Part shown: piece by piece, positions 60,115 through 60,318 of the stretch
How the letters are laid out: every line of letters starts with the position of its first letter
Position numbering within the stretch: the first letter of the stretch is position 1
From: Eledone cirrhosa
Lineage: Eukaryota
Direction of reading: 5' to 3'
NCBI GenBank assembly: GCA_964016885.1
Contig: OZ024740.1
Coordinates: forward strand, 118,296,001-118,360,000
Length of the DNA: 64,000 bases
The notes under the pieces: model-generated
What the model saw: the letters and a program-made list of their open reading frames with translations, nothing else
What the model was told of the DNA's origin: nothing
The model's database searches: none
Made by a program: the position numbers and the translations under genes

Positions 60115-60115
<1 letters not shown>

Positions 60116-60318
60116 TAGAAGTGGTTACACAACAGTTAGTTCACAATACCGACAACAATTGTTTCACCTTCGCGGATCTTCAGCTGAAGATCCGCGAAGG
60201 TGAAACAATTGTTCTCGGTATGGTGAACTAACTGTTGTGTAACCACTTCTATCTAACTCGTCTCTTGGACTGAGTGTTCTACCACTATGGATTTTTACCT
60301 TCCAGTGTTCCACCACTA
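60115..60318 (+). repeat. 138-bp palindrome with hammerhead core plus 66-bp tail (fold-back Penelope-like terminal repeat)
   Basis: Arms 60115-60183 and 60184-60252 with 2 mismatches; CTGAAGA starts at 60184; GAAACAATTGTTGTC on the - strand arm. Confidence 0.85.

What the first reader, a model, noticed from the sequence alone, without database searches (positions are those of the whole stretch)
60115..60318. Second, different-family palindrome with the same hammerhead-anchored axis
Seen: 69-bp arms (2 mismatches) meet at CAG|CTG, so CTGAAGA starts at the axis on both strands, followed by cc-gcgaa-gg, GAAA, ACAA-ttg-TTGT and C (canonical GUC on the - arm). A 66-bp tail follows, with (TA)n on both sides. 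The arms do not align with the 20205 element, but the architecture is the same. The tail resembles the non-inverted copy at 1355-1500, which keeps stem I. Inference: a recurring class of ribozyme-defined fold-back retro-products, possibly mobile in their own right.
Basis: partly seen in the sequence, partly recalled or inferred. Interest (0 to 1): 0.72.

Follow-up and report, generated by a model that had tools for sequence, protein, structure and literature searches.

The report
Head-to-head Penelope stump marks RNA start
This palindrome is two cut-short ends of a common Penelope-like jumping gene lying head to head in a TA repeat; its axis is one of many joints clustered just before the hammerhead motif, likely because the element's capped RNA starts there and was copied twice, not because the ribozyme cuts there.

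Summary
The palindrome is real: 69-bp arms, 2 mismatches, 66-bp tail, (TA)n flanks. It is an inverted, 5'-truncated insertion of a 2.6-kb Hydra-clade Penelope-like retrotransposon (PLE) with over a thousand copies. The tail is the standard PLE tail. The 'canonical GUC' is a rare point change (260 of 271 arms read GUU/C), and the palindrome has lost the family's stem I.

The junction is not fixed. Exact AG|CT joints number 33, against 192 joints slightly further upstream. They sit on a native self-complementary AGCT and do not form a clade (p-AU 0.001), so this is no mobile class of its own.

Joints do cluster just upstream of the hammerhead. Arms starting at -8 here, and sharply at -6 in the 20205 family (30 nt below a TATA box), often carry a non-native G: 46 of 100 and 90 of 100 listed. 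That suggests a copied 5' cap. Likely mechanism: two cDNAs primed on opposite target strands run to the RNA's 5' end and join by microhomology. This competes with the published antisense self-priming idea. No RNA data were available.

The parts
60062..60114 (.). (TA)n microsatellite, left half of the target
   Evidence: Read directly. Nearly all family copies end in TA or GA runs.
60115..60183 (-). Inverted short arm: element positions +1..+69 (C of CTGA = +1), ending at the family's internal 3' end
   Evidence: 243 of 450 arms in fetched loci end at +65..+69 (partly selected by my patterns); 1470 exact TA-joined short ends genome-wide.
60182..60185 (.). AGCT joint: native self-complementary 4-mer (CCGAG|CTGA) shared by both arms
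   Evidence: Native upstream CCGAG in 70 or more of 73 long copies at each of -4..-1; a 4-nt overlap at the same joint in L071 and L216.
60184..60318 (+). Long arm: element positions +1..+135, the 3' end of the pseudo-LTR of a Hydra-clade PLE; 96% identical to the nearest copies
   Evidence: The full unit is in L122 (cores at 553 and 3135).
60184..60218 (+). Minimal type I hammerhead core: CUGAAGA, 2-bp stem II, GAAA, palindromic stem III (AACAATTGTT), predicted site GUU/C between 60213 and 60214. The 5' strand of stem I is lost except for AG; predicted inactive here
   Evidence: Position-wise counts in 73 long copies; fold of a native copy versus the palindrome. Cleavage not tested.
60253..60318 (+). 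66-nt PLE tail between the two preferred 3' ends (+69 and +135)
   Evidence: 123 of 450 arms end at +135. Tail = distance between two RT start sites in PMC11167929.
60317..60339 (.). (TA)n microsatellite, right half of the target; TA is shared with the element's own CACTA end
20205..20394 (+). Comparison element: the same kind of insertion from a second Hydra-clade family
   Evidence: 4369 exact cores genome-wide.
1355..1500 (-). Comparison element: solo, non-inverted stump of a related, more diverged family

Best explanation
The palindrome is one insertion of a Hydra-clade Penelope-like retrotransposon, two 5'-truncated pseudo-LTR ends joined head to head in a (TA)n run, likely made when two cDNAs primed on opposite strands of the cut target copied the same capped RNA towards its 5' end and were then joined through a native AGCT overlap. 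Shown: the parent element, the two preferred 3' ends (+69, +135), the spread of joints, their peak just upstream of the hammerhead, the shared variants of the two arms, the extra G. Inferred: the RNA starts at about -8 (at -6 in the 20205 family), at the 5' strand of hammerhead stem I; the extra G is the reverse-transcribed m7G cap; RT starts at +135 on one nick and at +69 on the other; this copy lost about 6 nt from each cDNA end before AGCT annealing. The hammerhead would then lie near the axis only because it is the first thing in the transcript. The stump is predicted to be dead: no ORF, no stem I, and a through-transcript would fold into one long hairpin.
For: Parent: 2.58-kb unit with two direct cores (L122) and ORF motifs RWR, DKT, YRDD, CxCX5C, CxxC, CxH, Y-x-G-M, matching the Hydra description in PMC8557442 section 11. 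Joint counts by 31-nt gap bin: 208, 530, 343, 130, with AG|CT at the centre of the 530 bin. Exact AG|CT 33 versus 192 with both cores whole and a joint further up. 49 of 105 parsed joints show 1-7 nt of overlap. Arms agree in subfamily marks: 48 of 53 (shuffles mean 32, max 42) and 61 of 65 (mean 49, max 56). The tailless arm reaches more than 10 nt further 5' than the tailed arm in 33 of 105, the reverse in 16, within 10 nt in 56; a fold-back copy of the tailed cDNA cannot do the first. Extra G, 20205 family: 670 copies start at A-6 after two non-C bases; G precedes A-6 in 90 of the 100 listed (counted by eye; 28 of 30 fetched); the control 4 nt upstream gives 2 copies; TATAAATA begins at -36; of 91 cores, 44 start at 0..-7 and none at -8..-11. 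Extra G, this family: 46 of 100 listed of 322 (19 of 30 fetched); 8 of 12 at -8 versus 60 of 197 at control positions, Fisher p 0.02; native -9 is C in 67 of 73. Seven loci show the extra base on both arms with a 1-nt spacer. Untemplated G as a cap signature is stated for L1 and SVA in PMC4859970 (passages). Two RT start sites, extension on both target strands and no need for ribozyme cleavage are shown in vitro in PMC11167929.
Against: There are no RNA data, so the start site and the cap are inferred. In this family the edge is soft: of 93 short-end copies 19 start at -2..-14, 12 at -19..-29, 23 at +5..+39 (a few mis-parsed) and 34 beyond -150. No TATA box lies 30 nt above -8. In the finding's own subfamily G precedes -8 in 15 of 21, but in 12 of the 15 the G could come from the inverted mate; only L420, L428 and L431 are clean. 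More than half of the listed -8 starts lack the G (54 of 100, many explained by TA flank). The control G rate is already 30%. This copy itself carries no cap G: it stops at -2. Arm concordance cannot tell one RNA molecule from two RNAs of one source copy, nor exclude later gene conversion. All samples are the first matches in genome order with exact anchors, so young copies are favoured.
Confidence: 0.72

Rival explanations
1. Self-priming or fold-back: one strand is made, then folds back at a short palindrome and copies itself (or an antisense RNA self-primes), giving the head-to-head repeat, as proposed for rotifer PLEs.
For: Published hypothesis for such junction palindromes (PMC3846280 Discussion passage). 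56 of 105 joints are symmetric within 10 nt and the arms share variants; several joints far upstream are also near-symmetric, e.g. -268/-259, -315/-296.
Against: In 33 of 105 joints the tailless arm extends more than 10 nt further 5' than the tailed arm. Perfect zero-spacer joints and 1-nt spacers between two extra bases leave no room for a hairpin loop (inference). An antisense template does not explain a G at the sense start 30 nt below a TATA box.
Confidence: 0.15
2. The hammerhead structure sets the axis without cutting there: in a dimeric hammerhead (paired through the AACAATTGTT palindrome) RT stalls at the second stem I just upstream of CUGA, and the extra G is a plain terminal addition.
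For: The peak of joints overlaps the 5' strand of stem I in both families. Palindromic stem III and dimer action are described for PLE hammerheads (PMC4209133).
Against: A stall should fall at the near edge of the helix (-1), but the sharp edge is at its far end (-6) with G in 90 of 100. G is not the dominant first foreign base elsewhere (60 of 197). Core mutants do not change insertion products in vitro (PMC11167929).
Confidence: 0.08
3. One reading: a ribozyme-defined fold-back element with a fixed junction that is mobile as a unit.
For: 33 to 35 loci share the exact junction; the label is mildly clustered on the tree (11 changes against a shuffled mean of 15.2; 1 of 500 shuffles as low).
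Against: One clade is rejected (17 rows against 90, p-AU 0.001; 0% of bootstrap trees). The 17 carry 8 different subfamily mark sets. The clustering is expected because most were picked with a subfamily-specific pattern. The joints are diverse and the cleavage site is 30 nt away.
Confidence: 0.03
4. Assembly artefact (fold-back read).
For: Perfect palindromes can arise from chimeric long reads (general knowledge). No contig of three public runs was shown to span the whole stretch.
Against: The arms differ at 2 sites, only one has the tail, the flanks differ, and more than 1200 inverted copies with varied joints match the anchors genome-wide.
Confidence: 0.02

Closest known systems
Insertion unit of endonuclease-bearing Penelope-like elements: pLTR, adjacent inverted 5'-truncated copy, one-sided tail, junction palindrome (PMC3846280; PMC8557442 Fig. 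2 legend)
   Same: Head-to-head inverted truncated copy, tail on one arm only, microsatellite target, hammerhead near the 3' end of the pLTR.
   Different: Tail of 66 nt rather than 30-40; no ORF at all; joints pile up at an inferred start site with an extra G, which the passages I read do not describe (they propose antisense self-priming).
Hydra clade of C-terminal EN+ PLEs (PMC8557442, section 11)
   Same: Under 3 kb, single ORF, DKT, CxCX5C linker, CxxC and CxH in the endonuclease, no CCHH seen, hammerhead, (TA)n insertion.
   Different: RWR in place of RWK; no tree with named Hydra references was built; Pfam gives only a sub-threshold GIY-YIG hit for the sister family (E 0.019) and none for this family's pieces.
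Minimal, dimer-type type I hammerheads of metazoan PLEs (PMC4209133)
   Same: CUGAnGA and GAAA boxes, extra nucleotide before stem II, short palindromic stem III; opposite-strand pairs of motifs are mentioned there at about 100-700 bp.
   Different: Stem II is only 2 bp plus U-U; the triplet is GUU; here the two cores abut and stem I is lost.
PAc (Poseidon of Anolis) in vitro mechanism (PMC11167929)
   Same: Two internal RT start sites a tail apart, AT-rich target cut and extended on both strands, uncleaved RNA as template.
   Different: Different clade; the parts I read do not address inverted joints or cap copying.
L1 twin priming and untemplated 5' G (review PMC4859970)
   Same: Inversion from a second primer on the other target strand, small indels at the breakpoint, extra G taken as a copied cap.
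   Different: In L1 the two cDNAs cover different parts of the RNA (recalled); here both cover the same 5' stretch, giving a palindrome.
Non-LTR retrozymes (bioRxiv 10.64898/2026.07.22.740005, part 1 read)
   Same: Short non-coding PLE-derived sequence with a type I hammerhead.
   Different: Retrozymes are head-to-tail tandem units with complete hammerheads; this is head-to-head, single and lacks stem I.

Membership tests
EN+ Penelope-like element insertion | Sequence belongs to an element with an RT plus C-terminal GIY-YIG ORF between direct pLTRs | tested here: met
   L122 has two direct cores 2582 nt apart around an RT/EN reading frame (broken in that copy); long arm 96% identical to its pLTR. 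GIY-YIG judged by motif and by 40% identity to L385, whose Pfam hit is sub-threshold.
EN+ Penelope-like element insertion | Inverted 5'-truncated copy next to the 5' end | tested here: met
EN+ Penelope-like element insertion | Tail on one end only | tested here: met
   66 nt between ends +69 and +135; longer than the 30-40 nt described.
EN+ Penelope-like element insertion | Target-site duplication | tested here: inconclusive
   Both flanks are (TA)n, so a duplication cannot be read.
Hydra clade | DKT, CxCX5C linker, CxxC and CxH, no DKG | tested here: met
   Motif scan of natural ORF pieces L122, L120, L116, L385 against the description.
Hydra clade | RWK motif | tested here: inconclusive
   RWR at the matching place in L122 and L385.
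Hydra clade | Length under 3 kb, hammerhead, (TA)n targets | tested here: met
Hydra clade | Placement in an RT tree with reference PLE clades | not tested
   No reference PLE proteins were fetched.
Type I hammerhead ribozyme (native family copy) | Conserved core and three helices | tested here: met
   Core boxes kept in 70 or more of 73 copies per position, with N7 the variable one (53 A, 18 G); stem I CCGAG:CUCGG predicted. The search pattern itself selects for the core.
Type I hammerhead ribozyme (this palindrome) | Stem I present | tested here: not met
   Only AG of the 5' strand remains; the through-transcript folds as one hairpin.
Type I hammerhead ribozyme | Self-cleavage | not testable with these tools
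   Needs an in vitro assay.
Non-LTR retrozyme | Head-to-tail tandem units, each with a complete hammerhead | tested here: not met
   Single head-to-head unit.
Independently mobile palindromic element | Copies with the same junction form one clade | tested here: not met
   p-AU 0.001, 17 rows against 90.

The most novel reading that the evidence does not exclude
Inverted PLE stumps are a genomic record of the transposition reaction: the element's capped RNA begins at hammerhead stem I, and one RNA is reverse-transcribed twice, from two internal start sites on the two strands of a cut (TA)n target, to the cap, after which the two cDNAs are joined cap to cap. This would explain the head-to-head pLTR and the one-sided tail of PLEs without antisense self-priming, map PLE start sites from genome sequence alone, and make the hammerhead a 5'-end (decapping) switch of the transcript.
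Probability: 0.55. Interest if true: 0.68.

Novelty: new member of a known kind. Interest (0 to 1): 0.46.

Why it matters
The object itself is ordinary: one of more than a thousand inverted stumps of an abundant retrotransposon. The population of such stumps is what matters. How Penelope-like elements build their head-to-head repeats and tails is called open in the papers read (PMC3846280, PMC8557442, PMC11167929). The junction statistics here give a concrete, testable model (capped sense RNA, two primary cDNAs, end joining) that differs from the published antisense self-priming idea and predicts the start site to the nucleotide. It also warns that 'twin hammerhead palindromes' in animal genomes with PLEs should not be read as new ribozyme replicons.

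Tried and rejected
Rfam at E<=1 gave 125 matches, mostly microsatellite or hairpin hits to miRNA models, and no hammerhead family. The inverted-repeat tool listed only the 25 longest of 517 pairs and did not show this one; a script found it. Pfam on four ORF pieces of this family gave no RT or GIY-YIG hit and phmmer against solved structures gave 0, so the clade call rests on motifs. A DNA search with the 20205 element returned nothing because common words are skipped; a pattern found 4369. No RNA holder was listed. Three public contig runs of one sample hold the family in thousands of pieces but none was shown to span the locus: no verdict. Starts at the cleavage site: 36 genome-wide, but that pattern excludes T in the two flanking bases and so misses many TA-flanked copies; it cannot be set directly against the 322 and 21 at -8. 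An early apparent pile-up at -3 was an artefact of aligning one subfamily to another's upstream sequence and was dropped after subfamily-aware parsing. Monomer folds of native copies do not beat shuffles (z -0.6 to 0.8), as expected for dimer-type hammerheads. A splice acceptor at CCGAG|CTG was considered and set aside by eye (GAG, not YAG); not tested. The alignment added nothing. Paper searches for cap copying in PLEs found 0 papers with all terms: 'Penelope, retrotransposon, extra G, cap' and 'Penelope-like, retrotransposon, capped, head-to-head'; 'Penelope, internal promoter, transcription start, hammerhead' listed one. The library lacks most subscription papers, and no supplements were opened; the supplementary consensus and hammerhead files of PMC8557442 may bear on family naming.

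Full report
Observation. The window lies in a 3.0-Gb genome with 1796 contigs. A script confirmed a palindrome with 69-bp arms, 60115-60183 and 60184-60252, two mismatches (60153/60214 and 60145/60222), axis TTCAG|CTGAAG and no spacer. A 66-nt tail runs to 60318 and TA runs lie on both sides. The same script found the 20205 palindrome (61-bp arms), whose centre reads CATCAC|CTGATG. I number positions from the C of CTGA (+1 = 60184).

Parent element. A search with the long arm gave 1847 candidates, of which 40 were scored; the best are 96% identical. Of the 29 other top loci most continue upstream into a shared sequence ending CCGAG|CTGAAGA. Ten longer stretches showed a full unit in L122, with two direct cores 2582 nt apart and an RT plus endonuclease reading frame that is broken in that copy. 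Natural ORF pieces carry RWR, DKT, YRDD, CxCX5C, Y-x-G-M, CxxC and CxH. PMC8557442 section 11, read in full, defines the Hydra clade of Penelope-like elements by length under 3 kb, RWK, DKT, a CxCX5C linker, CxxC and CxH motifs, hammerheads and (TA)n targets. Pfam and the structure database did not name this family's pieces. The 20205 element belongs to a sister family with an uninterrupted 758-codon frame in L385, 40% identical over 598 aa, with a sub-threshold GIY-YIG hit. No tree with reference PLEs was built.

Hammerhead. In 73 long natural copies the motif is CCGAG CUGA(A/G)GA U CC GC(G/U)AA GG U GAAA C AAUU G U U/CUCGG. Stem I is CCGAG:CUCGG, with a possible extension; stem III is the palindrome AACAATTGTT; the predicted site is GUU, after +30. 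In the palindrome only AG of the stem I 5' strand remains, and a through-transcript folds into one hairpin of -111.5 kcal/mol, so I predict no cleavage here.

Ends and tail. Arms end at two places: 243 of 450 at +65..+69 and 123 at +135 (my patterns favour these ends). The TA-joined short end has 1470 exact matches. In vitro, the Anolis element starts reverse transcription at two internal sites a tail apart, cuts and extends both strands of AT-rich DNA, and does not need ribozyme cleavage (PMC11167929, parts 1-2 of 4 read). An inverted 5'-truncated copy with a one-sided tail is the described PLE layout (PMC8557442 passages; PMC3846280 passages).

Is the junction fixed? No. The exact AG|CT joint occurs at 35 loci with one mismatch allowed and at 33 with both subfamily letters allowed. 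With both cores whole and 0-30 further bases between the arms there are 192. Among 105 parsed joints, 2 are AG|CT and no joint occurs more than twice; 49 show 1-7 nt of overlap, 6 are blunt and 50 have extra bases; joints with more than 25 unparsed bases were dropped before this count. AGCT is native and self-complementary, which explains its modest preference. The 17 AG|CT copies in a 107-row tree need 11 changes, carry 8 mark sets, and are rejected as one clade (p-AU 0.001); the tree has few columns and a few AG|CT copies were left labelled as 'other' by my threshold. The label is mildly clustered (1 of 500 shuffles), which the subfamily-specific search pattern predicts.

Is the junction random? 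Also no. Inverted copies per 31-nt gap bin number 208, 530, 343 and 130, moving from inside the core to upstream, with AG|CT at the centre of the second bin. Of 93 short-end copies (of 100 listed; the 7 left out were inverted copies fetched for other lists), 19 start at -2..-14, 12 at -19..-29, 5 at -40..-91, 34 beyond -150 and 23 at +5..+39, a few of these mis-parsed. The cleavage site is not a pile-up (1 of 210 arm starts at +31; 3 of 93, two of them in one locus). In the 20205 family the edge is sharp: of 91 cores (of 100 listed; most of one tandem array skipped), 44 start at 0..-7, none at -8..-11, 12 at -12..-88 and 35 beyond -100; that sample cannot see starts inside the core.

What marks the edge? 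In the 20205 family TATAAATA begins at -36. 670 copies begin at A-6 after two non-C bases, and the base before A-6 is G in 90 of the 100 listed, counted by eye, and in 28 of 30 fetched, with unrelated sequence before it. The control 4 nt upstream finds 2 copies. In the finding's family 322 copies begin at A-8 in this way; G precedes it in 46 of 100 listed, T in 32 and A in 22, many of the latter being TA flank. In loci not selected for it, G is the first foreign base in 8 of 12 arms at -8 against 60 of 197 at control positions (p 0.02). In the finding's own subfamily it is 15 of 21, but only 3 are free of the inverted mate's sequence. Seven loci carry the extra base on both arms with one base between. 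An untemplated 5' G is read as a reverse-transcribed cap for L1 and SVA (PMC4859970 passages), and the PLE start site lies in the pLTR in two studied elements. I infer that the RNA starts at the 5' strand of stem I. The evidence is strong for the 20205 family and moderate for this one.

How many cDNAs? The two arms share subfamily marks (48 of 53 and 61 of 65, above all 2000 shuffles; a third mark, 16 of 18, was reached by the best shuffle), so they come from one source. The tailless arm runs more than 10 nt further 5' in 33 of 105 joints, which a fold-back copy of the tailed strand cannot produce, while a fold-back of the tailless strand cannot supply the tail (inference). Two primary cDNAs joined end to end fit best. 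This differs from the antisense self-priming proposed in PMC3846280, whose authors left the question open.

Model for this locus. Shown: Hydra-like parent, ends at +69 and +135, joint at -2/-2 on AGCT. Inferred: the endonuclease cut both strands of a TA run; RT copied uncleaved sense RNA from +135 on one strand and from +69 on the other towards the cap at about -8; about 6 nt were lost from each end or synthesis stopped short; the two ends annealed through AGCT. Four substitutions and one extra base separate the long arm from its nearest fetched copies.

Novelty. The object is a new member of a known kind. The cap-anchored twin-cDNA reading was not found in my paper searches, which cover only part of the literature. 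I wrote it down before seeing that an earlier, unreviewed note of this scan had reached the same reading on another piece of this genome; that note is not independent support. Interest 0.46: an ordinary object whose relatives make an open mechanistic question testable.

Noticed in passing
L385:3965-6238 (-), G000:C1:14205000-14212000: Uninterrupted 758-codon Hydra-type frame of the 20205 family between two pLTRs; its upstream pLTR starts at about -9 and lacks the TATA box that the downstream pLTR carries.
   Followed up: partly
window 20266-20310; L250:1495-1552: The 20205 family's hammerhead reads best with a 6-bp stem I (AGAUUC:GAAUCU), a 4-bp stem III and a GUA site, not GUC; stem I begins exactly at the inferred start A-6 (by eye).
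   Followed up: partly
window 60062-60109 and other flanks: (TA)n itself fits the TATA consensus (recalled), so stumps that lost their TATA box might be re-transcribed from the target; a through-transcript of this palindrome would be a long double strand, a possible small-RNA source. Untested.
   Followed up: no
G000:C1:83679788-83691707: Tandem array of 12 cores of the 20205 family at a period of about 1.08 kb.
   Followed up: no
window 61255-62281 (-), 44551-45444 (-), 25484-25678 (+): Decayed pieces of other PLE reading frames, 26-41% identical to this family's protein.
   Followed up: no
window 42695-42805: Inverted repeat with 44-bp arms and a 23-nt spacer, no hammerhead core found by the scan.
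   Followed up: no
window 25929-27007 and 62923-63927: Longer inverted repeats: 184 nt at 96% with 711 nt between, and 125 nt at 91% with 755 nt between.
   Followed up: no
window 56158-56203 (+): Histone 3' stem-loop match below the gathering score (30.8 against 34 bits, E 7.5e-05).
   Followed up: no
listing, G000: Several copies read AG|CTCGGTATGG, possibly joints made through the complementarity of the two stem I strands; some near -17/+34 also appear (L164, L174).
   Followed up: no
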